A stretch of DNA of 9,261 nt from a virus (IMGVR_UViG_2657245500_000015); one strand, 5' to 3'; counted from the first letter of the stretch, positions 485 to 9,261 are shown. The notes: generated by a model not told the origin, from the letters alone. Numbers and translations are program-made.

Positions 485-1051
485 TTATTCAGCTTTAATA
501 CGCTGTACAGTTGACTTGGCAACGTTGAATTGAGCGGCTACTTTAGCGATTGAACTACCAGCAGCAAGAGCAGCTTTAATACCTTCTCTGTCAACCGCTT
601 TACCGTTACCCCTTCCAACTACACGACCAGCAGCTTTAGCAGCTTCATAACCTTCTCTTTGACGCTCAAGCATCATTTTACGTTCAGCTTCAGCCACTGC
701 TGAAAAGATTGTGAGAATCATCTTAGACGTGGGGTTATCGTCACCAGTTATCAGACCTTCTTTGTGAAAGTGAACCTTGATACCTTTCTGTGAAAGTTTA
801 TCCACCAGCGTTAATACATCCACGGTAGAGCGCCCTAAACGTGACAGGTCGTGTACATGGATAGTGTCACCTTCACGAACATAATCGAGCATAGCCTTTA
901 GTTGTGGACGGTCTGTATTCTTCCCAGATGCTTTATCAGTAAATACCTTATCCAGTACGACCCCTTCAAGTTGACGGTCTGTAATCTGCTGGATTGATGA
1001 AACTCGAACATAACCAATGTTAGCCATAATATACTCATTTGCCTTACTCAT
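485..1051 (-). CDS. Serine recombinase, resolvase/invertase family
   Basis: N-terminus MANIGYVRVSSIQQ matches the catalytic-serine motif of Hin/Gin/gamma-delta resolvase; also FTDKASG, DLSRLGRS, ILTIFSAVAEAER E-helix, and a C-terminal HTH (SSIAKVAAQFNVAKSTVQRI). The likely true start is the internal Met at 1027 (MANIGY...), since the ATG at 1051 has no SD. Confidence 0.9.
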   Translation of the reverse strand: MSKANEYIMANIGYVRVSSIQQITDRQLEGVVLDKVFTDKASGKNTDRPQLKAMLDYVREGDTIHVHDLSRLGRSTVDVLTLVDKLSQKGIKVHFHKEGLITGDDNPTSKMILTIFSAVAEAERKMMLERQREGYEAAKAAGRVVGRGNGKAVDREGIKAALAAGSSIAKVAAQFNVAKSTVQRIKAE

Positions 1052-1519: not shown

Positions 1520-2182
1520 ATGTCAATTGAGCATATTTTAATCGGGAAACATCATGGGGGTTCTGATTACTGGAGAACTCCATTTCTTATATTCCGCAAT
1601 TTGCACCGTGAGTTTAGTTTCAGTCTGGATGGTGCTGCAACTGAGCATGACACGCTGTTACCACGATTCACCAATGATATTCACAATCAGTCATGGGATG
1701 GTGAACGGGTGTTCTGTAACCCACCATACAGCGACACTAAAACATTCCTCCTAAAAGCCGCTGAAGCGGATTTAGCGGTATTCCTGATACCGTACCGACC
1801 CCACACCACATACTGGCTTAAGCACCTCTTCACAAACCCGCTTTGCCATGAAATCCGTATTCTTCATCGTGCAGTTAAATACCTTCCACCAGCAGGGCAT
1901 AACGGGCTTGCTATTAGGTCACCGTTTGCAAGTGCAATTGTCATCTTTAAAACTGAGCCACGCAGACATGAAATTACGCAGATGATTTGCTGTGCTGATA
2001 CATTGCTACCGTTAACCATCATTAACAGAGGAGGCTTAAGAGGAAGACCCACCATTTACCCACCTGAGACGCTCGACAGCTTCATAAAGCTATACAGGCA
2101 AGGAAAACCCATTAAGTGCATTGCAGATGCTCTCAGAATGCCTCTGAGCACGTCATACAGGATTGCGCAAAGGTTGAGCTAA
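1520..2182 (+). CDS. Dam-family DNA N6-adenine methyltransferase with C-terminal invertase-type HTH domain
   Basis: WRTP, FSLDGAATEHDTLLPRF, VFCNPPYSD and VFLIPYRP motifs are typical of phage (T1-type) Dam methyltransferases. The last ~55 aa (NRGGLRGRPT...LYRQGKPIKCIADALRMPLSTSYRIAQRL) match the GRP plus HTH C-terminal domain of Hin/Gin-type serine recombinases. No obvious SD before the ATG at 1520. Confidence 0.8.
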   Translation: MSIEHILIGKHHGGSDYWRTPFLIFRNLHREFSFSLDGAATEHDTLLPRFTNDIHNQSWDGERVFCNPPYSDTKTFLLKAAEADLAVFLIPYRPHTTYWLKHLFTNPLCHEIRILHRAVKYLPPAGHNGLAIRSPFASAIVIFKTEPRRHEITQMICCADTLLPLTIINRGGLRGRPTIYPPETLDSFIKLYRQGKPIKCIADALRMPLSTSYRIAQRLS

Positions 2183-2286
2183 AATTCTCATAAATATGGC
2201 CATTTACAAGACAGGTGATTTAGATATTAAGAAGTATCCCTGTGAACAATAAATGACCAATCAGTAATTATTCTGTGAAATAATTG

Positions 2287-2315
2287 TTGCAATCTATAAT
2301 CACACATGATATAGT
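2287..2315 (+). promoter_or_regulatory. Candidate sigma70 promoter (TTGCAA-N17-TATAGT) upstream of the replication gene
   Basis: TTGCAA at 2287-2292, 17-bp spacer, TATAGT at 2310-2315. Confidence 0.35.
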
Positions 2316-2548
2316 TTCATAGTGGGCTGATAAAAAAGTTCATGTCTTGAAGTGGTAACACTTGGGGAGGTGTCAGATGATTGACGTCAACAAGACCTCT
2401 CATTCAGGGTAATTACCTCAGCGTTTTAATCATCGTACTGTTTCAGGCATGGACTTCTTTATCAGTCCATCAATCCCCCAGATATTTTAATCACACAGGC
2501 TAATCGGTTTTATCCGGTTGGCCTTTTCACGTATGAGGTAATTTATGA

Positions 2549-3487
2549 ATGTCTAAATATAACCCAAATCAGTTTTATAAATTTGATGTGCGAATCTCTC
2601 AGCTTTCAGAAGAAATTAACGCAGCAGCAAGATTAATTTATATGGTCATGGTTCATAGCTGTGATTTCTATGAAGAGAAGTACAAAGCATATTCACCAAG
2701 TATTGACCATCTAGCTTATATGGCTGGTGTTTCAAAGAGAACGGCAATCAGAGCTATTGAGACACTTGAGAAACACGGTTTAATTCAGGTGCAAAAGAAT
2801 CAGGGTCGTCAAAGCACTTATCGTGTATTCACACTGGATGATAAGCCGGAATTACTTGTAAGACCTACATCACAGGAAGTTGCAGCCTCAGTAAGACAAA
2901 ATGACACCACTACCAGTGACAAAATGTCATCAGTACCAGTGACAAAATGTCATGGGGGTAGTGACAAAATGTCACCCGTGTTAGATAAGTTATTAGATAA
3001 AACATTAGATAATAATATTATAGATAAGAGTAAAGATACTGAACTTGATGTTGGTATCAATGAAGATGATTTTCTTTCTTTGGATGAATTAAATGATTTT
3101 CTCTCTATGAATGAATCTGACCTTGATAGTGAAGCTACTAAAGAGACCTCTAAAACATCTGACTTAGAGGAAGATAAAATCTCTGATGTGAATGAAGTTA
3201 GTGACCAGCAAGATACACCTTGCCGCCTCGAATCAACTGATGATGAATTACCGGATGTTGACCTTGATGATGAAGAAGACCCTGAAGAGGAATTGAAACG
3301 TGAACAGCGTAAAGCAGAAATTAAAGAAAGATTCAGAAAGGCAAAGCTAAAGAACAGGATTGATGAACTTGATGACTTTGATGATAGTGACGATGATTTT
3401 ACTTTTACACCAAAAAAGAAAACTCACACCGAGCCAAAGAAAGAAAAAGTTAAAGTCAGACGTGTTTATGCTGGAGGAATGTTTTAA
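2549..3487 (+). CDS. Replication initiator protein (N-terminal HTH DNA-binding domain, acidic C-terminal tail)
   Basis: N-terminal region (SIDHLAYMAGVSKRTAIRAIETLEKHGLI) resembles HTH-type phage/plasmid replication initiators. Four iterons and an AT-rich tract lie inside the coding sequence, as in lambda O/ori. SD GAGG at 2534-2537. The C-terminal third is highly acidic low-complexity sequence. Confidence 0.8.
   Translation: MSKYNPNQFYKFDVRISQLSEEINAAARLIYMVMVHSCDFYEEKYKAYSPSIDHLAYMAGVSKRTAIRAIETLEKHGLIQVQKNQGRQSTYRVFTLDDKPELLVRPTSQEVAASVRQNDTTTSDKMSSVPVTKCHGGSDKMSPVLDKLLDKTLDNNIIDKSKDTELDVGINEDDFLSLDELNDFLSMNESDLDSEATKETSKTSDLEEDKISDVNEVSDQQDTPCRLESTDDELPDVDLDDEEDPEEELKREQRKAEIKERFRKAKLKNRIDELDDFDDSDDDFTFTPKKKTHTEPKKEKVKVRRVYAGGMF
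2893..2975. repeat. Iteron array: four copies of the palindromic motif (a)GTGACAAAATGTCA(t) at ~23-bp spacing
   Basis: GACAAAATG cores at 2895-2903 (degenerate copy AGACAAAATGACA), 2918-2926, 2941-2949 and 2963-2971. Each full site has dyad symmetry (TGACA-AAA-TGTCA). The 23/23/22-bp period is about two helical turns. Confidence 0.7.
2981..3029. other. AT-rich tract with repeated TTAGATAA (putative DNA unwinding element of the origin)
   Basis: TTAGATAA at 2981-2988, 2993-3000 and 3005-3012 (12-bp period), and TAGATAAG at 3022-3029, immediately downstream of the iterons. Same order (iterons then AT-rich) as lambda ori. Confidence 0.5.
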
Positions 3488-3777
3488 TGAAAGAATATAA
3501 CGGTGAAAAACGATACAAAGATTATCTATTAAGGCGCTACAGCATTTCTCGTGAAGGTCATCTTCTGAAAGATACTCATGGGGAGGTTTACCGGATTCGA
3601 CCGAAGAAGGAAGGAAAGAATTATTTCTTTTTTGATGGTGTGACAGATTTAAAGATTGACGCTTTGAGGTTTGCAGTGATGTATCATTTTGATGTCTGGG
3701 ATTCAGTCCACCAGCTACGATTAAAAGACGGTGACCCCGGTAATCTGAAGGCCACCAATATCATCACAAAACGTTAG
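3487..3777 (+). CDS. Hypothetical small protein, NUMOD4/HNH_3-like (possibly degenerate HNH)
   Basis: The ATG overlaps the replication gene stop (TAATG coupling) and GGAGGA SD lies at 3471-3476. YSISREGHLL, ALRFAVMYHF and LRLKDGDPGNLKATN parallel the Y.VSN.GRV / HRLV / HIDGNK.NN.NL pattern of small HNH homing-endonuclease-like proteins, but the conserved His positions appear replaced. Confidence 0.6.
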   Translation: MKEYNGEKRYKDYLLRRYSISREGHLLKDTHGEVYRIRPKKEGKNYFFFDGVTDLKIDALRFAVMYHFDVWDSVHQLRLKDGDPGNLKATNIITKR

Positions 3778-3959
3778 TTTGTTTTACCATCATCAATCGT
3801 AATTGTGATTTCATATTTGAAAAGCTTAATGCTGAAATTGAATCGTGTACTTTTGGCGATAATCATTTTTAAAAGCTGATACACCAGAAGCACCAGAAAC
3901 ACAAAGCAACCTAAGCTTGCGAATCTGTGAGATTCAGCAATTGTTTCAAGAAAGCCCAT
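3774..3959 (-). CDS. Small hydrophobic (probable membrane) protein, 61 aa
   Basis: Minus-strand ORF with a predicted transmembrane stretch (LGCFVFLVLLVYQLL). SD-like AAGGGGA 5 nt upstream of the ATG, and a candidate minus-strand promoter at 4011-4038. Its 3' end overlaps the convergent ORF ending at 3777. Confidence 0.4.
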   Translation of the reverse strand: MGFLETIAESHRFASLGCFVFLVLLVYQLLKMIIAKSTRFNFSIKLFKYEITITIDDGKTN

Positions 3960-4010
3960 TAATTCCCCTTATTTATCAAAGGGAATGACCTGTATCAGCC
4001 CCTATAACCA

Positions 4011-4038
4011 TAATATCATGTAAATGAGATGTTGACAA
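4011..4038 (-). promoter_or_regulatory. Candidate minus-strand sigma70 promoter (TTGTCA-N16-TATTAT)
   Basis: The reverse complement of 4033-4038 is TTGTCA and of 4011-4016 is TATTAT, with a 16-bp spacer. It would drive the small hydrophobic ORF 3959->3774. Confidence 0.35.
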
Positions 4039-4060
4039 TATGTTAAATAAATGTTAAGAT
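4032..4060 (+). promoter_or_regulatory. Candidate sigma70 promoter (TTGACA-N17-TAAGAT) for the 4097-4812 operon
   Basis: TTGACA at 4032-4037, 17-bp spacer, TAAGAT at 4055-4060. Its -35 overlaps the -35 of the divergent minus-strand promoter. Confidence 0.4.
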
Positions 4061-4096
4061 TGTAGTATGAGTAAGAGATTTAAGGAGATTTTTACA

Positions 4097-4387
4097 ATGA
4101 CTCACACAGTTACGCGCCTTTTGCCAGAGGCATTTGAACGACTGGCAGCAATCAAAGCCAAATATCCCGATATGAAGCACACAGCGCTTGTTGCAGAGGT
4201 TTTAAAAGAGCCGGTAGACTTGACCCCTTTCGATAACGTTAAGGGCGTTGCAGAGGGTTCTAAGGCCATCAGAATCACAACGGGCCAACTGGAACTACTC
4301 AAAGCACAGTCCGCAGTAGCAGGTTGCTCAATGATTCAGGTCTTAAGCGCAAAGGTTCATCAATTAGCGGATAAGCTGGGGGTTTAA
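4097..4387 (+). CDS. Hypothetical DNA-binding protein, ribbon-helix-helix-like (possibly two tandem RHH motifs)
   Basis: The start is moved to the ATG at 4097 because of the AAGGAG SD at 4082-4087 (the ATG at 4067 sits on the promoter). TVTRLLPEAFERLAAIKAKY...HTALVAEVL and IRITTGQLELLKAQSAVAG...MIQVLSAKV each fit a beta-strand/helix/helix RHH pattern. Confidence 0.65.
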   Translation: MTHTVTRLLPEAFERLAAIKAKYPDMKHTALVAEVLKEPVDLTPFDNVKGVAEGSKAIRITTGQLELLKAQSAVAGCSMIQVLSAKVHQLADKLGV

Positions 4388-4812
4388 TGCTATGTACATT
4401 TGATTATCATGCGTTTTATCGACATAGAGGTCATCTTGTCCGTGAGAATAACGGAACATGGAAAGATTTAACTCGTAATGCTGAACCCTTCACACACCAG
4501 CAATTAAAATCCCGCTTCTCCAGATGGAAGAATGCACCAGCAGATACTGGTGATTTTGAGATTATCCATACCTTCGATTATGCCTCAGAAGATGACCTTC
4601 ACGATGCAATTAAGCTGATTGAAGACTTCAATACCTCAGAAAATGTGGATGGTGACAAATATAAATCCCGTGGTAACCGCTATAACCGTGATGATATCAC
4701 TCAGGCCATAAATGCTGGTCAATCTCAGCGATACATTACAGAAAAATATGGTATTTCACGGAGACAGTATTTCTACGTTAAATCATTGATTAATAAAGAC
4801 AATTCAAAATAA
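4387..4812 (+). CDS. Hypothetical protein with C-terminal helix-turn-helix
   Basis: The ATG overlaps the upstream stop (TAATG), indicating translational coupling. C-terminal ITQAINAGQSQRYITEKYGISRRQYFYV resembles resolvase/HTH_23-type HTH motifs. Confidence 0.65.
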   Translation: MLCTFDYHAFYRHRGHLVRENNGTWKDLTRNAEPFTHQQLKSRFSRWKNAPADTGDFEIIHTFDYASEDDLHDAIKLIEDFNTSENVDGDKYKSRGNRYNRDDITQAINAGQSQRYITEKYGISRRQYFYVKSLINKDNSK

Positions 4813-4971
4813 CCATCTCAGTAACGGTAGAATGCACTTTACAGGCAGAGTTGCACCTTAATTTGATAAATTACCTTACCAGCCAGTGCAACTCCCTCTG
4901 TAACCCGCATGGTTACTGGCCTCAGAATGGCTATTTTAAGAGGTCTGAGATGTGTTTTAGAGGAATTTAAA

Positions 4972-5295
4972 ATGAGCAATTACGAATTACAGATTTTCGT
5001 TGATAACGACACCGCTATGATGATTCAGGCTTTCAGTGATTCCGGTGTATCAATTGATTTTGACAGGCTGTTAAAGCTGATGGCTGATAATGCAGAAAAC
5101 ATCTCTGACTTTATTCAGTCGGTGGAGTTTAACGAGCCTCGAATGATGCTACCAATTACCGACTCAAACATGAAAAGATTGGTTATCGAGCAAACGAACA
5201 AACACAGTATTTCCCCAGAGCAATTTTTGAAAGGTGCTGTGACAATCCTGCACAGCGATAATATTCTGGTGACGGATTCTATGAGGGTTCACTAA
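4972..5295 (+). CDS. Hypothetical protein (107 aa)
   Basis: The start is placed at the ATG at 4972, preceded by GAGGA at 4959-4963; the longer ORF from 4909 has no SD. No family recognised. Confidence 0.6.
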   Translation: MSNYELQIFVDNDTAMMIQAFSDSGVSIDFDRLLKLMADNAENISDFIQSVEFNEPRMMLPITDSNMKRLVIEQTNKHSISPEQFLKGAVTILHSDNILVTDSMRVH

Positions 5296-5372
5296 TGGGA
5301 TTGATAATTGCTTGGACAGCTTTAGGTTTATTTGTTGGTTGCTGGGTGGGCAACACAGTAAATAAGAATTGA
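5295..5372 (+). CDS. Possible 25-aa hydrophobic peptide (MGLIIAWTALGLFVGCWVGNTVNKN)
   Basis: The ATG overlaps the stop of the upstream gene (TAATG at 5293-5297). The peptide is a single predicted transmembrane helix. Below the size cut-off of the ORF track. Confidence 0.3.
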   Translation: MGLIIAWTALGLFVGCWVGNTVNKN

Positions 5373-5396
5373 TGTTACCAATCTGTTAAAAAGCTG

Positions 5397-5425
5397 TTGA
5401 CAAATAACCTTAAGCATGGCATAAT
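5397..5425 (+). promoter_or_regulatory. Consensus-like sigma70 promoter (TTGACA-N17-CATAAT)
   Basis: TTGACA at 5397-5402, 17-bp spacer, CATAAT at 5420-5425; predicted transcription start near 5432. Confidence 0.5.
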
Positions 5426-5620
5426 TGTATATATGAGGATAGTCTTCTATCCGAAGTCTATAGGAAGAGCAATTTTTCCTAAAATCATATTTTCAATAAT
5501 CCGATGGATGGATATTCTGAGTTGGAAAGGTGCAATGCTTTTCGTCATGGCCTTTCAGTTTAGTCTGAGAGGTCATCTCAAAAAGTGCTTAATCATTCAT
5601 TATTGAACCCTTACAGCTTT

Positions 5621-5650
5621 GCCCTAACTCATGATTAGGGCGTTTTCTTT
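5621..5650 (+). terminator. Rho-independent terminator
   Basis: Stem GCCCTAA (5621-5627) pairs with TTAGGGC (5635-5641), 7-nt loop, followed by GTTTTCTTT. About 220 nt downstream of the 5397 promoter. Confidence 0.55.
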
Positions 5651-5720
5651 AAGAGTTTTGAAACAGAGCTTTTAAAGAAAGTTTTCCTGAAACTTCGTTA
5701 ACGTTATAAGCAAACCTTCA

Positions 5721-5755
5721 AAGCCCTTCACAGATTATGTTTAGGGCTTTTCTTA
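5721..5755 (+). terminator. Second terminator-like hairpin
   Basis: AAGCCCT (5721-5727) pairs with AGGGCTT (5743-5749), 15-nt loop, followed by TTCTT. Weaker than the first because of the large loop. Confidence 0.3.
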
Positions 5756-5851
5756 ATAGAGCATCTTTAATAAATCGTTAAGTCATCTTCTAAGTGTATT
5801 GGCGTTGAAGGTGCTCTATTAAGAAATAACCACACTTAGAGGAAAAAAATA

Positions 5852-6562
5852 ATGACAAACGATATTTACATTAATGGCAAAGTGATTGATAGCTTCGGTG
5901 ACTGGTCACCACAGACTGAACATCCAGCTATCGCTATTCAGCGCAAAGAGCACGATGCGAGAATTGCACTTGAGCAATCGCTAAAGATGACACCAAAGGA
6001 AATTACCTTTGTGGCTCCTGAACCTCAAGAGATGCCCGATATTGGCAAAACTGAAGCATTATTTAATCTTGAGCGCGAATATTACCCACAGTTAAAAGAA
6101 CAGCGCCTTAGATTAGATGACGCTTACAGCAAAGTTACCTTGATGCAATCAGCTATTGAGCCGTCAGAATTTGAGATTCAGGATGAATTGTCACAGAAAC
6201 CATTTGTCTATTACCAATACGAAGACAATGATGGTTTTGGTACTTTTCCAGAAAACATCACAGGCGTGATTAGTAGTCTTCCTGATGGATATCGAATTGT
6301 GAAGATGGTTAAAGCTTCAAGAGGTGCTGGTCAGTTTATTTACATGACCAATAAGAGCGATGAAGAACTCCGTGAAATTGCCAGACAGAACATCTTGGCA
6401 TCACGTAACAAGCAACTTGAAAATGTTAAGTTGTATCTCTCAAGAGAGCTTCAGGCTATGAAAGAGCTTGTTAGTGAATATGAGTCGCAGAAGAAGATTG
6501 CTATGCAAGCCGATATTGAGCAGCTTACGAAGATTTCTCAGAAGTATAGCAAAGCGATTTAA
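5852..6562 (+). CDS. Hypothetical protein (236 aa, C-terminal predicted coiled coil)
   Basis: Long ORF with SD AGAGG at 5838-5842 and ATG at 5852. No family recognised. Confidence 0.75.
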   Translation: MTNDIYINGKVIDSFGDWSPQTEHPAIAIQRKEHDARIALEQSLKMTPKEITFVAPEPQEMPDIGKTEALFNLEREYYPQLKEQRLRLDDAYSKVTLMQSAIEPSEFEIQDELSQKPFVYYQYEDNDGFGTFPENITGVISSLPDGYRIVKMVKASRGAGQFIYMTNKSDEELREIARQNILASRNKQLENVKLYLSRELQAMKELVSEYESQKKIAMQADIEQLTKISQKYSKAI

Positions 6563-6578
6563 TTTAAGTGAGGTGAGA

Positions 6579-6794
6579 ATGATTGATTTGCAACAGCGTT
6601 ATGAAACTATTAAGTCGGCTTGTGAAAACTTAAAGTTACAAACCAAGCCAGCCTTAAGAATTAAAACCAAACATCAAATTATCACCTCACACAAACCAAA
6701 AACACGCAAGATTCCAAAGTGGTGTATTGACCGTATTCCTTCTGATGCTCAAATCATAGGTGAAACGGAATTACATTATCTTGTCCGACATTAA
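6579..6794 (+). CDS. Hypothetical small basic protein (71 aa)
   Basis: ATG at 6579 preceded by GAGGTGA at 6568-6574. The longer ORF from 6468 overlaps the preceding gene and lacks an SD. Confidence 0.5.
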   Translation: MIDLQQRYETIKSACENLKLQTKPALRIKTKHQIITSHKPKTRKIPKWCIDRIPSDAQIIGETELHYLVRH

Positions 6795-6821
6795 AAAAGA
6801 ATTGGTTGGGTAAAAATCAAC

Positions 6822-6863
6822 GGGAGAGATTATCGAGTGATATCGGTAGTTTCTCCCTTTTTT
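6822..6863 (+). terminator. Putative terminator hairpin with T-run
   Basis: GGGAGA (6822-6827) pairs with TCTCCC (6852-6857), followed by TTTTTT at 6858-6863. The loop is long (24 nt), so stability is uncertain. Confidence 0.4.
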
Positions 6864-6870
6864 GTATGTG

Positions 6871-6913
6871 TGCTACGTGAAATCTTCTGAACAGATATAC
6901 CCACCAAAAATTA
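6871..6913. repeat. Direct repeat copy R1 (TGCTACGTGA-AAT-CTTCTGAACAGATA...AAAAATTA)
   Basis: About 43 bp, near-identical to 9110-9152: blocks TGCTACGTGA (10/10), CTTCTGAACAGATA (14/14) and CAAAAATTA match, with a short variable linker. R1 is additionally bounded by the 7-bp inverted repeat GCTACGT (6872-6878) / ACGTAGC (6920-6926). Confidence 0.7.
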
Positions 6914-6954
6914 TTTTTTACGTAGCTCACGCTTAAAGAGGTGAAAAAATATGA

Positions 6955-9021
6955 ATGGCACAATTTAAAGTTGATGATTTTCTGATTGAGCTAGGTTTTA
7001 ACTCTCAGAGGGTTTTAAAAGGTCTGGAAAAAGCCGAGAAACAAACGATGCAGGTAGCATCACGAATTGAGAAGCGATTGAATAAAGCTTTTAAAGTTAA
7101 CCCTACGCCTTTAAATGATTCTCTCAAGGTCATGGAAAGAAATGTCGATAAAACTGTTTCCAAGATTGAGCAGCGTCTTAAAAACACTAAAGCGTTTAAG
7201 ATTAAAACGGAAATTGAGGATACTTTAAAGCCACTTAGACAACCGAGACAGCCACGAATTAGCGGAAGCAGAGCAATTACAGCAGCGCATAGCGTGAATA
7301 TGAGCAAGCTTCGTGACTTTAATCCTATGCTTGAGAAGTATTTTAAAAGCCAGTATTACAGCTTAAGCAGTAAATCCAAGACACTTGGAAACGAAGCTTT
7401 TAATCGTGAGTTAGCAAAATTAAATCAATCTCTTCGTGAAACACTTTCTAAGTTTAACAAGACCACCAGCAAAAATAATCACAGTGAAAATGCTTCGAAT
7501 GGTCTGGATGTATTAGCTACGAGTGCAATCAAAGCAGGTACAGCCATTTATAGTTTTCAGACAGCCTTAGAAGCTTACAGGCGGATTATGGAGGTTGGTC
7601 TGAAAAAAGAAGCATCACAACGAGCGGCACAATTCGTTTTAGGTGATGAAGGTGCTAAACGAGCTACAGAATTTGTTAAGAATCTTGCTGATAGTAGTGG
7701 TGTAGACCAGATTGAAACATTAAGCAGTTTTGCTAAGTTTTCCGCTGGTGCTGGTGATATGAATGCAGACCAGAAAGAATCCTTATTTTCTAATGTGATT
7801 GGTACATCCAGATTAATGGGGCTAAGCACCGATGAAATTAACGGGATTTTAAAAGCTTTCGAGCAGATGGCATCTAAAGGAAAGATTCAGGCTGAAGAGC
7901 TACGCGGTCAATTAGGTGACAGAATGGCAGGTGCTTTTCAGTTATTTGCCAGAAGTCTTGGGATGACTACGGAAGAATTAGACAAGGCTATGAAAGACGG
8001 TAAGGTTCTTTCTAAAGATGTTCTCCCTAAAGTATCCGCTGAAATGGGAAAGATGATTGATAAAGCGGGAGGATGGGAAAAGATTATTAACTCTACTCAG
8101 ACGCAGTTAGGCCGCTTAAGTAATTCATGGAATAATAATTTGGCCTTAATGTTCGATGGTTCACAGGAAGGTTTAACAGACTTTACAAGGTCACTGACTA
8201 ATTTACTTAATTCACTGGGTGGTCAATCTAAAAATCTTGGTGAACATTTTGGCGACTTGATGAAAAGCATGTCAAACGGTATTGATGATTTAACCACGAT
8301 TAGCTACCGAGTGCAGGGATTCTTTGACAGAGTGACCCTTGCTTACAGAGAATTAAATGACACTCAAAAAGCTGTAGCTGATGGTATCGCAAATGGCCTG
8401 TTAAGTGCATTAAAGGGACTTGCTGGTATTGTCGCTGTAAGGTCTGGTATTGGTGCTGTAGGTGGTATCTGGAACTTAATTAGGGCTATTTCCACGCTTG
8501 GGAATGTAGCAAATACAGCAGCAGGAAGAATTAATTCACGTTCTGGTGGTGTTGAAAGTGGAAAAAGTAGGCTATCTGTAGCTGATGCAATTACCAGAGT
8601 AATGATTGTCGGTATGACAACTGATGTGATTAATGCCATTGTCAAACCGTTCTATGAACGTCAGATGAGTAAGTCAGATAATCCGATTGATAAAGTTGTA
8701 AGGTCAAAGGTGGAACCCACAGACCAGGCATTAACTGGTGACATGAACTCTTTAGCCGCTGTTTTATGGGCTATGGTTCATGGCAAATCAAAAGATGTTC
8801 CACAGTTTTCACCTGAAGCATTAAATAATCTAAAAGGTCGAGTGGAAACATTCACACAAGATTTAAAGGTTATCAAGCCGTCAGTAAATATTCAGCCTCA
8901 GACAATCAATATCACAACTCAGACGGTACTTGATGGAAAGGTTATTGATGAAAGAACCACATCGCATATTAATCGTATGCAGGAAGATACCTTGATTAGC
9001 TCAGCTTACCCAGAGGAATAA
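6955..9021 (+). CDS. Tape-measure-domain protein (phage tail tape measure-like), 688 aa
   Basis: The segment FEQMASKGKIQAEELRGQLGDRMAGAFQLFARSLGMTTEELDKAMKDGKVLSKDVLPKVSAEMGK matches the conserved tape-measure domain pattern (SKGK.Q.EEL..QL..R.PGA.Q..A...G....EL...M..GK.L...VLP). A Gly-rich hydrophobic segment (GLAGIVAVRSGIGAVGGIWNLI) is typical of tape-measure proteins. SD AAAGAGGTGA at 6936-6945. Confidence 0.85.
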   Translation: MAQFKVDDFLIELGFNSQRVLKGLEKAEKQTMQVASRIEKRLNKAFKVNPTPLNDSLKVMERNVDKTVSKIEQRLKNTKAFKIKTEIEDTLKPLRQPRQPRISGSRAITAAHSVNMSKLRDFNPMLEKYFKSQYYSLSSKSKTLGNEAFNRELAKLNQSLRETLSKFNKTTSKNNHSENASNGLDVLATSAIKAGTAIYSFQTALEAYRRIMEVGLKKEASQRAAQFVLGDEGAKRATEFVKNLADSSGVDQIETLSSFAKFSAGAGDMNADQKESLFSNVIGTSRLMGLSTDEINGILKAFEQMASKGKIQAEELRGQLGDRMAGAFQLFARSLGMTTEELDKAMKDGKVLSKDVLPKVSAEMGKMIDKAGGWEKIINSTQTQLGRLSNSWNNNLALMFDGSQEGLTDFTRSLTNLLNSLGGQSKNLGEHFGDLMKSMSNGIDDLTTISYRVQGFFDRVTLAYRELNDTQKAVADGIANGLLSALKGLAGIVAVRSGIGAVGGIWNLIRAISTLGNVANTAAGRINSRSGGVESGKSRLSVADAITRVMIVGMTTDVINAIVKPFYERQMSKSDNPIDKVVRSKVEPTDQALTGDMNSLAAVLWAMVHGKSKDVPQFSPEALNNLKGRVETFTQDLKVIKPSVNIQPQTINITTQTVLDGKVIDERTTSHINRMQEDTLISSAYPEE

Positions 9022-9109: not shown

Positions 9110-9152
9110 TGCTACGTGATTTCTTCTGAACAGATACCAACATCAAAAATTA
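9110..9152. repeat. Direct repeat copy R2
   Basis: Near-identical to R1 (6871-6913); lies 89 bp downstream of the tape-measure gene stop. It lacks the right-hand ACGTAGC inverted-repeat arm seen at R1. Confidence 0.7.
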
Positions 9153-9261
9153 GATGAACCGCCCCGGGTTTCCTGGAGAGTGTTTTATCTGTGAACTCAG
9201 GCTGCCAGATCATTGTTTCCGATGGAAGCATAATAAGCTTTTTCTGCTTCTGCCGGAGGAG
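9112..9261 (-). CDS. Possible 3' end of a minus-strand gene continuing beyond the window (partial)
   Basis: The minus-strand frame is open for 49 codons from the window edge to a TAG at 9112-9114 (...LIFDVGICSEEIT*). The last ~110 bp are about 50% GC by manual count, against roughly 40% elsewhere. A + strand frame from the ATG at 9154 is also open, so strand and reality are uncertain. Confidence 0.25.
   Translation of the reverse strand, partial: LLRQKQKKLIMLPSETMIWQPEFTDKTLSRKPGAVHLIFDVGICSEEIT

What the first reader, a model, noticed from the sequence alone, without database searches (positions are those of the whole stretch)
5397..5650. Consensus-like promoter and intrinsic terminator about 220 nt apart: short-transcript unit resembling lambda pR'/tR'
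TTGACA-N17-CATAAT (5397-5425) is followed about 195 nt later by a clean hairpin plus T-run terminator (5621-5650). The only ORF in between would be leaderless (ATG at 5433, 58 aa, stop at 5606), with low-complexity hydrophobic composition. The arrangement matches a small RNA gene, or the constitutive short transcript that late-gene antiterminators (Q-type) extend into downstream structural genes. Here the downstream genes run into the tape-measure gene.
Basis: partly seen in the sequence, partly recalled or inferred. Interest (0 to 1): 0.55.

Follow-up and report, generated by a model that had tools for sequence, protein, structure and literature searches.

The report
Conserved non-coding leader gating tail genes
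A strong, highly conserved promoter in a small, apparently undescribed mobile element of E. coli makes a roughly 200-base structured RNA that codes for no protein and stops at built-in terminators, and it most likely acts as the gate that decides when the element's phage-tail genes downstream are switched on.

Summary
TTGACA-N17-CATAAT with an extended -10 TG (5397-5425) is the best promoter match in the window, and a hairpin plus T-run lies at 5620-5650. Conservation, not the consensus match, shows it is functional. The promoter is kept in 111 of 113 distinct relatives and is the best-conserved block of the intergenic region. The 57-codon ORF is not conserved, because its ATG sits in a 28-nt insertion that most relatives lack. 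The RNA core hairpin (5547-5576) shows compensatory base changes. The unit is larger than reported: triple TGTT repeats overlap the -35 and recur only at the early promoter (4030); a duplicated terminator T2 lies at 5720-5757; a 22-33 bp hairpin follows, whose loop pairs with the ribosome-binding site of the next gene; and a third strong terminator (6822-6857) precedes the tape-measure gene. No other conserved promoter serves these genes. Best reading: a regulated promoter with a terminated leader RNA gating the tail-gene operon of a satellite-like element, found in 477 of 5426 complete E. coli genomes. The lambda pR'/tR' analogy holds for architecture only. I found no Q homologue and no fixed pause region, and the tape-measure protein resembles those of Felix O1-like phages. 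A stand-alone regulatory small RNA remains a serious rival. The RNA has no Rfam family.

The parts
5373..5398 (+). Three TGTT repeats at 11-bp spacing (starting at 5373, 5384 and 5395). The third overlaps the -35 as TGTTGACA. Candidate operator or UP-like element.
   Evidence: The pattern TGTT-N7-TGTT-N7-TGTT has only 2 hits in the window, with 0.00 expected from shuffles. In 49 long loci it occurs only on the + strand and only at this promoter and the early promoter. A relaxed form is kept in 65 of 70 loci.
5397..5425 (+). Sigma-70 promoter: -35 TTGACA (5397-5402), 17-nt spacer, extended -10 TG (5417-5418), -10 CATAAT (5420-5425). The predicted start is about 5431-5433.
   Evidence: 11 of 12 consensus matches. 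Kept in 111 of 113 relatives. The block is 94% identical. It is the only conserved promoter-like site in the region.
5433..5460 (+). A 28-nt insertion with its own small hairpin (GGATAG/CTATCC, 5437-5452). It carries the ATG of the supposed 57-codon ORF.
   Evidence: Present in 19 of 111 relatives and 78% gaps in the 28-locus alignment.
5461..5481 (+). 5'-proximal hairpin A (AGGAAGAG / UUUUUCCU in the window; GGGAGAG/CUCUCUC in most relatives).
   Evidence: Predicted. Two of its four consensus pairs change on both sides while keeping the pair: GC40/GU29/AU15 and GC56/AU21.
5525..5586 (+). Conserved RNA core: an invariant 5' segment GAAAGGUGCAAUG, an outer helix (5538-5544 with 5579-5585) and an inner 12-bp hairpin (5547-5576).
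   Evidence: All 22 sequence variants keep the inner hairpin. Covariance-model alignment: 95.5% paired, 6 pairs changed on both sides, covariation score 0.230 against 0.138 for shuffles (0 of 500 reach it) and 0.063 or less for slid controls. Sense hits score 56-88 bits against 27-36 bits for antisense. The block is 90% identical.
5587..5619 (+). A/U-rich linker with a variable (AUUC)n tract and the conserved UUGAA(C/U)CCUUUA.
   Evidence: Alignments.
5620..5650 (+). Intrinsic terminator T1: stem 5620-5642 followed by TTTTCTTT.
   Evidence: Present in 76 of 111 relatives. Absent as part of a roughly 105-nt block in one third of the family.
5720..5757 (+). Intrinsic terminator T2 (AAAGCCCT...AGGGCTTT plus TCTTAAT), a paralogue of T1.
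   Evidence: Inverted repeat I7 and direct repeats D4 and D6. A T2-like hairpin is present in 107 of 111.
5749..5826 (+). Long hairpin with 22-nt arms (5749-5770 and 5805-5826). Its apical loop holds the anti-SD sequence UCUUCUAAGUGU (5786-5797).
   Evidence: Inverted repeats I1 and I8. Three sequence-distinct versions (alpha, beta, gamma) all form stems of 20-29 bp, with dG of -32 to -47 kcal/mol.
5832..5854 (+). Shine-Dalgarno region ACACUUAGAGGA (5832-5843) and the ATG (5852) of the 236-aa gene. It is complementary to the hairpin loop.
   Evidence: Loop:SD duplex medians are -17.3, -17.4 and -14.5 kcal/mol, with z of -4.2, -4.2 and -2.7 in the three families.
5852..6794 (+). Two genes of unknown function between T2 and T3: gp236 (5852-6562, coiled coil) and gp71 (6579-6794).
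   Evidence: No family matches. AlphaFold2 model and fold search (uninformative).
6822..6867 (+). Strong intrinsic terminator T3 (15-bp stem, about -22 kcal/mol, followed by T6), placed before the tape-measure gene.
   Evidence: Conserved in 86 of 90 loci with covarying stems.
6955..9021 (+). Tape-measure protein gene, the cargo at the end of the gated operon. In intact relatives a baseplate-protein gene follows it.
   Evidence: Pfam TMP_3 and PHROG 4036. 28-29% identical over its full length to Felix O1-like phage tape-measure proteins. Annotations.
4030..4060 (+). Early promoter TTGACA-N17-TAAGAT carrying the second copy of the triple TGTT motif, here inside the core promoter.
4972..5295 (+). 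gp107, immediately upstream. Candidate DNA-binding regulator with a tandem beta-alpha-alpha topology.
   Evidence: AlphaFold2 pLDDT 61. The best Foldseek matches are weak (E 0.065) and are F-plasmid relaxosome accessory chains.

Best explanation
The unit is the promoter and promoter-proximal leader of the tail-gene operon of a small (about 11 kb) integrative, satellite-like element. The shown and inferred steps are as follows.

Shown by sequence and comparison:
- A near-consensus sigma-70 promoter with an extended -10 is the best-conserved feature of the region. It is the only conserved promoter for the co-oriented genes gp236, gp71, tape-measure and baseplate.
- It transcribes a 176-251-nt RNA that does not code for protein. 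This RNA contains a 5' hairpin and a covariation-supported core hairpin.
- The RNA ends at one intrinsic terminator or at two tandem, paralogous ones (T1 and T2).
- Beyond them lies a 20-29-bp hairpin whose apical loop is complementary to the Shine-Dalgarno region of gp236.
- A third strong terminator (T3) lies before the tape-measure gene.

Inferred:
- By default RNA polymerase stops at T1 or T2, so the cell accumulates only the short RNA and the tail genes stay silent.
- Expression of the operon needs a signal that makes polymerase read through T1, T2 and T3. That means processive antitermination, either by a protein factor of the element or of a helper phage, or by the conserved leader RNA itself.
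- Translation of gp236 additionally needs the loop-SD pairing to be released. The long perfect stem resembles known RNase III cleavage sites (my own knowledge; not tested).
- The triple TGTT repeats overlapping the -35 are shared with the early promoter. They suggest that initiation is also controlled by a DNA-binding regulator, so the promoter is probably not simply constitutive.
For: Promoter conservation: 111 of 113 relatives; 94% identity, the best block of the intergenic region; the only conserved promoter-like site from -330 to +2200.

Non-coding: the longest ATG ORF ranges from 5 to 57 aa, and 56 aa or more occurs in only 4 of 111. The ATG at 5433 lies in an insertion present in 19 of 111.

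Structured RNA: z = -3.19 for the window RNA. Hairpin A has compensatory pairs. The core helix is 95.5% paired with 6 doubly changed pairs, a covariation score of 0.230 against 0.138 +/- 0.010 for shuffles (0 of 500 reach it), and 0.063 or less for slid controls. Strand asymmetry of model scores favours the + strand.

Terminators in series: T1 in 76 of 111 and T2 in 107 of 111; T3 in 86 of 90, about -22 kcal/mol plus T6.

Loop-SD complementarity is kept in three unrelated sequence versions.

TGTT motif: 2 hits in the window with 0 expected, found only at the two promoters in 49 loci.

Element context: all genes from 1520 to 9021 are co-oriented; intact relatives carry a large serine recombinase, a tape-measure gene and a baseplate gene, and are inserted at different chromosomal sites.
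Against: No transcript data exist, so the start site, termination efficiency and read-through are all predicted. No antiterminator has been identified. None of the element's small proteins matches a known antiterminator, and their models are of low confidence. I found no alternative anti-terminator pairing with comparative support, and the long-range helix of the minimum-free-energy fold is not supported by covariation (alignments). T1 is dispensable in a third of the family, and 12 variants of the sole remaining terminator have a poor T-run (AGGGCTATTCAGTTTT). T1 and T2 could equally be the terminators of the upstream early operon. Promoters of other types, such as phage-sigma or activator-dependent ones, in front of gp236 or the tape-measure gene would escape the consensus scan.
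Confidence: 0.5

Rival explanations
1. A stand-alone, trans-acting small RNA gene. The 180-220-nt RNA is the product. It base-pairs with host or helper-phage mRNAs, or titrates an RNA-binding protein. T1 and T2 merely end it and also end the upstream early operon. The downstream genes would be expressed by some other route.
For: It has its own strong conserved promoter. It has an intrinsic terminator with a U-tail preceded by an A/U-rich linker. The core is conserved, with covariation and an invariant unpaired 13-mer, GAAAGGUGCAAUG. The RNA has 2-5 GGAU repeats in many members. By analogy (my own knowledge), the short transcript that ends at the terminator after the Shiga-toxin phage late promoter is itself a regulatory small RNA (StxS).
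Against: No target was found. There is no significant complementarity to any translation start of the element or to the RNA's own leader (|z| < 2), and the one striking pairing (I2, 5279-5297 with 5598-5616) is not conserved. Host and helper targets could not be searched. This reading does not explain why the downstream tail genes lack any conserved promoter, nor why T3 and the SD-masking hairpin are conserved. It is compatible with the best explanation and does not exclude it.
Confidence: 0.3
2. A cis-acting antitermination RNA, working like the put RNAs of phage HK022. The conserved core hairpin would bind the transcribing polymerase and make it terminator-resistant without a protein factor. 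Control would then lie at initiation (the TGTT operator) and at translation (SD masking).
For: A highly conserved, covariation-supported hairpin with invariant flanks sits between the promoter and several terminators in series. No antiterminator protein is recognisable. There is evidence for control at initiation.
Against: If read-through were built in, selection for two or three good terminators would be hard to explain. There is no sequence or Rfam similarity to any known RNA. Only one long hairpin is conserved, where put has two stem-loops (my own knowledge). The idea cannot be tested in silico.
Confidence: 0.1
3. A true lambda-type pR'/Q unit. A Q-like protein encoded in 4067-5295 would bind at the promoter, join a sigma-paused polymerase and carry it through the terminators.
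For: The gene order of regulator genes, promoter, roughly 200-nt terminated RNA and structural genes matches lambda. The promoter spacer is unusually conserved. There are multiple downstream terminators.
Against: No Q family or fold match exists for any upstream protein. gp107 exists in alleles only about 27% identical to each other, while the promoter stays invariant. The initially transcribed region is variable, with a 28-nt insertion at about +3 in 19 of 111. The genes between 4387 and 4909 are replaced by other cargo, such as HNH endonucleases, in relatives. The tape-measure protein points to non-lambdoid helper phages.
Confidence: 0.07
4. A leaderless mRNA for a 57-aa hydrophobic protein (5433-5606).
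For: An ATG lies at the predicted transcription start, and the frame is open to 5606 in this window.
Against: The ATG lies in an insertion that 92 of 111 relatives lack. The longest ORF in relatives ranges from 5 to 57 aa in different frames. There are no family hits. Substitutions follow RNA pairing, not codon positions.
Confidence: 0.02

Closest known systems
Lambda pR' - 6S RNA - tR' late-operon gate with Q antitermination, and the StxS small RNA made by the same arrangement in Shiga-toxin phages
   Same: A strong sigma-70 promoter in front of the structural genes, a terminated non-coding transcript of about 200 nt, further terminators downstream, and regulator genes just upstream in the same orientation.
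   Different: No Q homologue is recognisable. The initially transcribed region is variable. Operator-like repeats overlap the -35. The terminators are tandemly duplicated. An additional long hairpin masks the SD of the first gene. The element is an 11-kb satellite-like island whose tape-measure protein resembles those of Felix O1-like virulent phages, not a lambdoid prophage. There is no sequence similarity to any phage record.
HK022 put RNA and other cis-acting processive antitermination RNAs
   Same: A conserved structured RNA lies directly after a promoter and ahead of several terminators, and no dedicated protein factor is evident.
   Different: A single long hairpin is conserved, where put has two stem-loops. 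There is no sequence relation. The function is untested.
P4 CI RNA and the P1/P7 c4 RNA (immunity RNAs processed from the leader of the operon they control)
   Same: A satellite or prophage context, with a small stable RNA made from the 5' part of an operon whose downstream genes are kept off by premature termination or translational block.
   Different: The defining complementarity between the RNA and target sites in the same transcript was sought and not found (z = -0.69 for the leader). The SD here is masked by a loop inside the leader itself, not by the upstream RNA.
RNase III-processed leaders that control translation (the lambda N leader, T7 early mRNAs)
   Same: A long, nearly perfect double-stranded stem (20-29 bp) lies immediately upstream of a ribosome-binding site that is involved in secondary structure.
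   Different: The anti-SD lies in the apical loop, giving a pseudoknot-like contact, and not in the stem. Cleavage is only inferred.

Membership tests
Lambda-type Q / pR'-tR' antitermination unit | A sigma-70 promoter immediately upstream of the late or structural genes, with a short terminated transcript | tested here: met
   The promoter is kept in 111 of 113 relatives, and the first terminator ends 176-251 nt downstream. No other conserved promoter serves the downstream genes.
Lambda-type Q / pR'-tR' antitermination unit | A Q-family antiterminator gene adjacent to and upstream of the promoter | tested here: not met
   No Pfam, NCBIfam, PHROG or PDB-sequence hit for gp96b/gp106, gp141, gp107 or the 25-aa peptide. 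The gp107 model has a tandem beta-alpha-alpha topology, and its weak best fold matches are relaxosome accessory chains, not Q.
Lambda-type Q / pR'-tR' antitermination unit | A Q-binding element in the promoter plus a sigma-dependent promoter-proximal pause at a fixed distance | tested here: inconclusive
   The spacer is highly conserved, which is compatible with a binding site. However, the first 30 transcribed nucleotides differ among members, including a 28-nt insertion at about +3 in 19 of 111. By inspection I saw no canonical TAnnnT hexamer in the early transcribed region. Pausing itself cannot be tested here.
Lambda-type Q / pR'-tR' antitermination unit | Several downstream terminators overridden processively | tested here: inconclusive
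   Three terminators in series are present and conserved. Whether they are overridden is not testable with these tools.
Hfq-type trans-acting small RNA | Own promoter, an intrinsic terminator with a U-tail, and a conserved unpaired seed | tested here: met
   The invariant GAAAGGUGCAAUG is unpaired in about half of the predicted folds. Caveat: most family members were retrieved with a 20-mer that contains it, but it is also invariant in the 28 loci retrieved by BLAST.
Hfq-type trans-acting small RNA | Conserved complementarity to a target mRNA | tested here: not met
   Within the element there is no significant duplex, and the I2 pairing is not conserved. Host and helper-phage targets were not testable.
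P4 CI / P1 c4 cis-encoded immunity RNA | The RNA is complementary to sites in the same transcript, causing termination or a translational block | tested here: not met
   The duplex of the RNA with its own downstream leader gives z = -0.69, and with the gp236 translation start z = 0.05.
Rfam RNA families (all 4227) | A covariance-model match | tested here: not met
   No hit in 5296-5851 even at E of 1 or less.
Type I toxin-antitoxin (small hydrophobic peptide plus antisense-like RNA) | The RNA is complementary to the translation start of an adjacent small hydrophobic ORF | tested here: not met
   A 19-nt complementarity exists in the window (I2), but it is lost in relatives that carry the other alleles of the target region.

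The most novel reading that the evidence does not exclude
The conserved leader RNA is the sensor and switch of a previously undescribed family of E. coli phage satellites that carry their own tape-measure and baseplate genes and exploit Felix O1-like virulent phages. On this reading a helper-phage factor, or the RNA itself acting as a new class of processive-antitermination RNA, converts polymerase started at this promoter to a terminator-resistant form. Only in infected cells would it then pass T1, T2 and T3, with RNase III-type processing of the long hairpin unmasking the first ribosome-binding site.
Probability: 0.15. Interest if true: 0.8.

Novelty: new variant of a known kind. Interest (0 to 1): 0.58.

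Why it matters
If the reading is right, about 9% of complete E. coli genomes (477 of 5426) carry an unannotated structured RNA and a three-layer genetic gate: an operator, serial terminators and a masked ribosome-binding site. This gate would control phage-tail genes in a mobile element for which I found no description in the searched literature. It would give a concrete, testable entry point to two questions: how such an element senses its helper phage, and how tail-gene hijacking is timed. It would also add a new RNA family to the small set of antitermination and leader RNAs known from phages. Even on the modest reading, a prophage-type small RNA, it is a widespread RNA gene missing from Rfam and from genome annotation.

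Tried and rejected
1. Protein-coding reading of 5433-5606. Rejected: the ORF is not conserved.
2. Type I toxin-antitoxin, or fold-back pairing between 5598-5616 and the SD/ATG of the 25-aa ORF (I2). Rejected: the complementarity is lost in relatives with other target alleles. Only a 6-7-nt GGAUUC/GAAUCC core persists, which is too short to count.
3. P4-CI/c4-like self-targeting. No significant duplex with the leader or with any translation start. An earlier, heavier version of this script timed out.
4. Long-range helix GAGUUG/CAGCUU from the minimum-free-energy fold. GAGTTG-to-GAATTG changes are not compensated.
5. Pairing of the (GGAU)n tract with the (AUUC)n tract. By inspection of the alignment, their copy numbers do not track each other.
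6. RNAalifold on the raw MAFFT alignment gave only two short helices, because gaps were misplaced in the core. I replaced it with a covariance-model alignment.
7. My first T3 finder was too strict and found only 2 of 90. Redone with RNAfold.
8. Phage-database and Rfam searches for the RNA: no hits.
9. Literature searches for the element family, or for satellites of Felix O1-like phages: nothing relevant.
10. Structure and fold searches. gp107 gave only weak, suggestive matches. gp236 is dominated by coiled coil and was uninformative. gp106 and gp107 show no detectable sequence similarity.
11. Linking the TGTT motif to a specific protein. The early-promoter copy co-occurs strictly with the adjacent gp96a/gp96b module (26 of 26 against 0 of 44). 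That is physical linkage, and the RNA-promoter copy is kept whichever early module is present, so no binder can be assigned.

Full report
**What the window is.** The 9261-base window is the interior of an integrated element of Escherichia. Its left end (1-97) is an IS421 end and its right end (9144-9261) is an IS629 end. All genes except two run on the + strand:
- a small serine recombinase/invertase (485-1051, minus strand);
- a Dam-type methyltransferase with an HTH (1520-2182);
- an HTH_36 replication-initiator-like protein (2549-3487);
- several ORFans, including a 61-aa ORF on the minus strand (3774-3959);
- a tape-measure protein (6955-9021; Pfam TMP_3, PHROG 4036).

Intact relatives in complete E. 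coli genomes are about 11 kb long. They continue with a 'phage baseplate protein' gene and a roughly 507-aa serine recombinase, and they are inserted at different chromosomal sites: inside a DUF72 gene in strain ZJ3920, and between yciI and tonB in EC20017429. This is the anatomy of a phage satellite or similar small integrative element. Its tape-measure protein is 28-29% identical, over its full length, to those of Felix O1-like virulent myoviruses. I found no paper describing this family.

**The observation.** TTGACA lies at 5397-5402, followed by a 17-nt spacer, an extended -10 TG at 5417-5418 and CATAAT at 5420-5425. At 11 of 12 matches it is the best promoter-like site in the window. A hairpin at 5620-5642 is followed by TTTTCTTT. 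A consensus match is not evidence by itself, since the window has fewer promoter-like sites than its shuffles (18 against 27.7), so I turned to comparison.

**Comparative data.** The intergenic region 5296-5851 is found in 477 of 5426 complete E. coli genomes. It is always chromosomal, at 67-93% identity, and never carries an annotated gene. It has no match in 50,697 phage records and no Rfam match even at E of 1 or less. I fetched 26 loci from E. coli genomes, 8 from genome or viral contig collections, and about 110 metagenomic or viral contigs that contain an invariant 20-mer of the RNA. Together they gave 113 distinct 850-nt segments.

**The promoter is real and special.** TTGACA, the 17-nt spacing, the TG and a (C/G)AT(A/G)AT -10 are kept in 111 of 113 segments. 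In the 28 aligned intergenic regions that were not selected with the 20-mer (27 fetched loci plus the window), the block 5373-5425 is 94% identical with 33 of 53 columns invariant. That is more conserved than the neighbouring small coding ORF (75%). Across 84 distinct 2.5-kb segments it is the only promoter-like site that is conserved: 89% of loci have it, against 24% or less in any 100-nt bin downstream.

**The ORF is not a gene.** The ATG at 5433 lies inside a 28-nt insertion (5433-5460, with its own small hairpin) that is present in only 19 of 111 relatives. The longest ATG ORF between promoter and terminator varies from 5 to 57 aa, in different frames, and reaches 56 aa or more in only 4 of 111.

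**The RNA is structured.** The window RNA folds better than its shuffles (z = -3.19). A 5'-proximal hairpin (5461-5481) has two pairs that switch between G-C and A-U in 15 and 21 sequences. The core (5525-5586) occurs in 22 sequence variants, and all of them keep a 12-bp inner hairpin (5547-5576). Examples are CCUUUCAG/CUGAGAGG against CCUAUUUAG/CUAGAUAGG, and AUGACC always paired with GGUCAU.

I built a covariance model of the core and aligned 64 sense-strand matches (35 distinct). The inner helix is 95.5% paired, and 6 of its 12 pairs change on both sides. The covariation score for the whole 19-pair core structure is 0.230, against 0.138 +/- 0.010 in 500 shuffles (none reach it) and 0.063 or less when the partners are slid by 1-3 columns. 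Sense matches score 56-88 bits and antisense matches 27-36 bits, which favours the + strand.

The segment GCUUUUCG can pair either with the invariant upstream GAAAGGU or with the downstream (A/G)AAAAGU. This is a possible two-state element, but it has no variation that would let me test it.

**The unit is bigger than reported.** There are five additions.

1. Three TGTT repeats at 11-bp spacing (5373, 5384, 5395) run into the -35. The pattern TGTT-N7-TGTT-N7-TGTT occurs only twice in the window, with 0.00 expected. The second copy is at 4030-4055, inside the other strong promoter (TTGACA-N17-TAAGAT), which drives the early operon. In 49 long loci the pattern occurs only on the + strand and only at these two positions. 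Loci with a different early-gene module instead have an early promoter that is visibly paralogous to the RNA promoter: TGTTAAAAATGCTTGACA...TAGTAT-TGTATATATAG.

2. T1 is absent, as part of a roughly 105-nt block, in about a third of the family. T2 (5720-5757) is a paralogue of T1 and is nearly universal: T1 occurs in 76 of 111 and a T2-like hairpin in 107 of 111.

3. After T2 comes a very long hairpin with arms at 5749-5770 and 5805-5826. It exists in three sequence-unrelated versions, all with stems of 20-29 bp and dG of -32 to -47 kcal/mol. In all three the apical loop is complementary to the Shine-Dalgarno region of the next gene. In the window, UCUUCUAAGUGU (5786-5797) pairs with ACACUUAGAGGA (5832-5843). 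Median duplex energies are -17.3, -17.4 and -14.5 kcal/mol, with z of -4.2, -4.2 and -2.7.

4. A third, strong terminator (6822-6857 plus T6, about -22 kcal/mol) lies between gp71 and the tape-measure gene. It is kept in 86 of 90 loci, with covarying stems.

5. No conserved sigma-70-like promoter exists after T2 or after T3.

**Mechanism.** Taken together, the shown facts describe a promoter whose transcripts must pass two or three terminators to reach the tail genes, and whose first downstream gene has a masked ribosome-binding site. The most economical reading has three parts. By default a short, stable, structured RNA is made. The operon is opened by read-through, which is processive because several terminators lie in series. 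Initiation is additionally regulated through the TGTT repeats shared with the early promoter.

Which factor opens the gate is unknown. The ORFans have no family matches. gp107, immediately upstream, has a beta-alpha-alpha/beta-alpha-alpha topology (pLDDT 61). Its weak best fold matches are F-plasmid relaxosome accessory chains of 110-120 residues, which I take from my own knowledge to be TraY, a tandem ribbon-helix-helix protein. That would make gp107 a DNA binder, not an antiterminator. gp236 is a coiled-coil protein with no informative match.

Membership in the Q system is not supported, for four reasons: there is no Q homologue; the initially transcribed region is variable; the promoter stays invariant although the upstream protein occurs in alleles only about 27% identical; and the structural gene affiliation is non-lambdoid.

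**Rivals.** A stand-alone trans-acting small RNA is the main rival and is not exclusive of the gate model. It has the right parts: a promoter, an A/U-rich linker, a U-tailed terminator and an invariant unpaired 13-mer. However, I found no target inside the element and could not search host or helper genomes. A put-like self-antitermination RNA is possible but cannot be tested here. The coding and chance explanations are effectively excluded.

**Verdict.** This is a new, widespread, unannotated structured RNA and leader with no Rfam family. It belongs to a known general kind, the terminated promoter-proximal transcript gating late genes, but has a distinct multi-layer design and sits in a mobile element I could not find described. 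All functional statements beyond conservation and structure remain inferences until transcripts are mapped.

Noticed in passing
5295-5372 (+): An unannotated 25-codon ORF, MGLIIAWTALGLFVGCWVGNTVNKN, whose ATG overlaps the stop of gp107 (TAATG). It is preceded by GAGGG. It reads as an intact 21- or 25-codon ORF in 24 of the 28 loci in two main allelic forms; the other is MELVIICFVLIGMIAGASIKV. In the remaining four my script picked the wrong ATG, and by eye they carry a third form (MTLVILW...). It is probably a real small membrane protein. No family hit.
   Followed up: partly
4030-4055 and 5373-5398 (+): The triple TGTT repeats at 11-bp phasing occur only at the two strong promoters of the element. 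At 4030 they lie inside the core promoter, from the -35 to the -10. At 5373 they lie upstream and overlap the -35. Divergent promoter-like sites at 4010-4060 look like a genetic switch region.
   Followed up: partly
whole window; L001 12001-23000; L002 12001-23400: The element looks like an undescribed satellite-like island: a large serine recombinase, an invertase, Dam, a replication initiator, a tape-measure gene and a baseplate gene, about 11 kb in total, inserted at different chromosomal sites. Its tape-measure protein is closest to those of Felix O1-like myoviruses (28-29% identity). In this window it is truncated by IS421 (1-97) and IS629 (9144-9261), and it lacks the baseplate and integrase genes.
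   Followed up: partly
6822-6867 (+): A strong, conserved intrinsic terminator lies directly upstream of the tape-measure gene (86 of 90 loci, covarying stem). No conserved promoter lies between it and the ATG at 6955.
   Followed up: yes
5503-5513 and 5590-5603 (+): There are microsatellite-like tracts inside the RNA. (GAUG/GGAU)n varies from 2 to 5 copies and (AUUC/UCAU)n from 1 to 4 copies among relatives. The GGAUG repeats resemble CsrA-binding GGA motifs (my own knowledge), but they are replaced by unrelated sequence in two other module variants.
   Followed up: no
5620-5642 (+): The T1 hairpin occurs in two forms whose loops are reverse complements of each other: GCCCTAA-CTCATGA-TTAGGGC and GCCCTAA-TCATGAG-TTAGGGC. 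It looks as if the loop had been flipped by recombination within the stem.
   Followed up: no
5433-5460 (+); the second insertion is not in the window (e.g. L001 about 16997-17024): Two different 28-nt hairpin-containing insertions come and go within the RNA among relatives: ATGAGGATAGTCTTCTATCCGAAGTCTA, and GTGAGGTATGTTCTATACCGAACATTCT just 5' of the core. They may be miniature mobile or duplicated hairpin modules.
   Followed up: no
5852-6562 (+): gp236 is named 'transposase' by NCBI annotation in many genomes. It has no Pfam, NCBIfam or PHROG domain, and its predicted fold is coiled coil plus a small beta domain. The name looks unfounded.
   Followed up: partly
6468-6794 (+): The frame that encodes gp71 stays open upstream for 95 nt, overlapping the end of gp236 in the +1 frame. 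Given its position just before a tape-measure gene, a frameshift-type chaperone pair is conceivable, but gp71 has its own SD (GAGGTGAGA-ATG at 6579).
   Followed up: no
5279-5297 and 5598-5616 (+): A 19-nt complementarity (84%) links the SD and ATG region of the 25-aa ORF to the 3' part of the RNA in this window. It is not conserved in relatives with other alleles. In a third allele group the upstream gene instead ends with AAACCCTTACAG, a direct copy of the RNA's GAACCCTTACAG, which may be a recombination scar.
   Followed up: yes
4055-4100 (+): The early promoter's -10 (TAAGAT, 4055-4060) places the transcription start at about 4067, exactly on the first ATG of the 106-aa ORF. Relatives annotate a 96-aa protein starting at 4097, which has a good SD (AAGGAG), so 4097 is probably the true start.
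   Followed up: no
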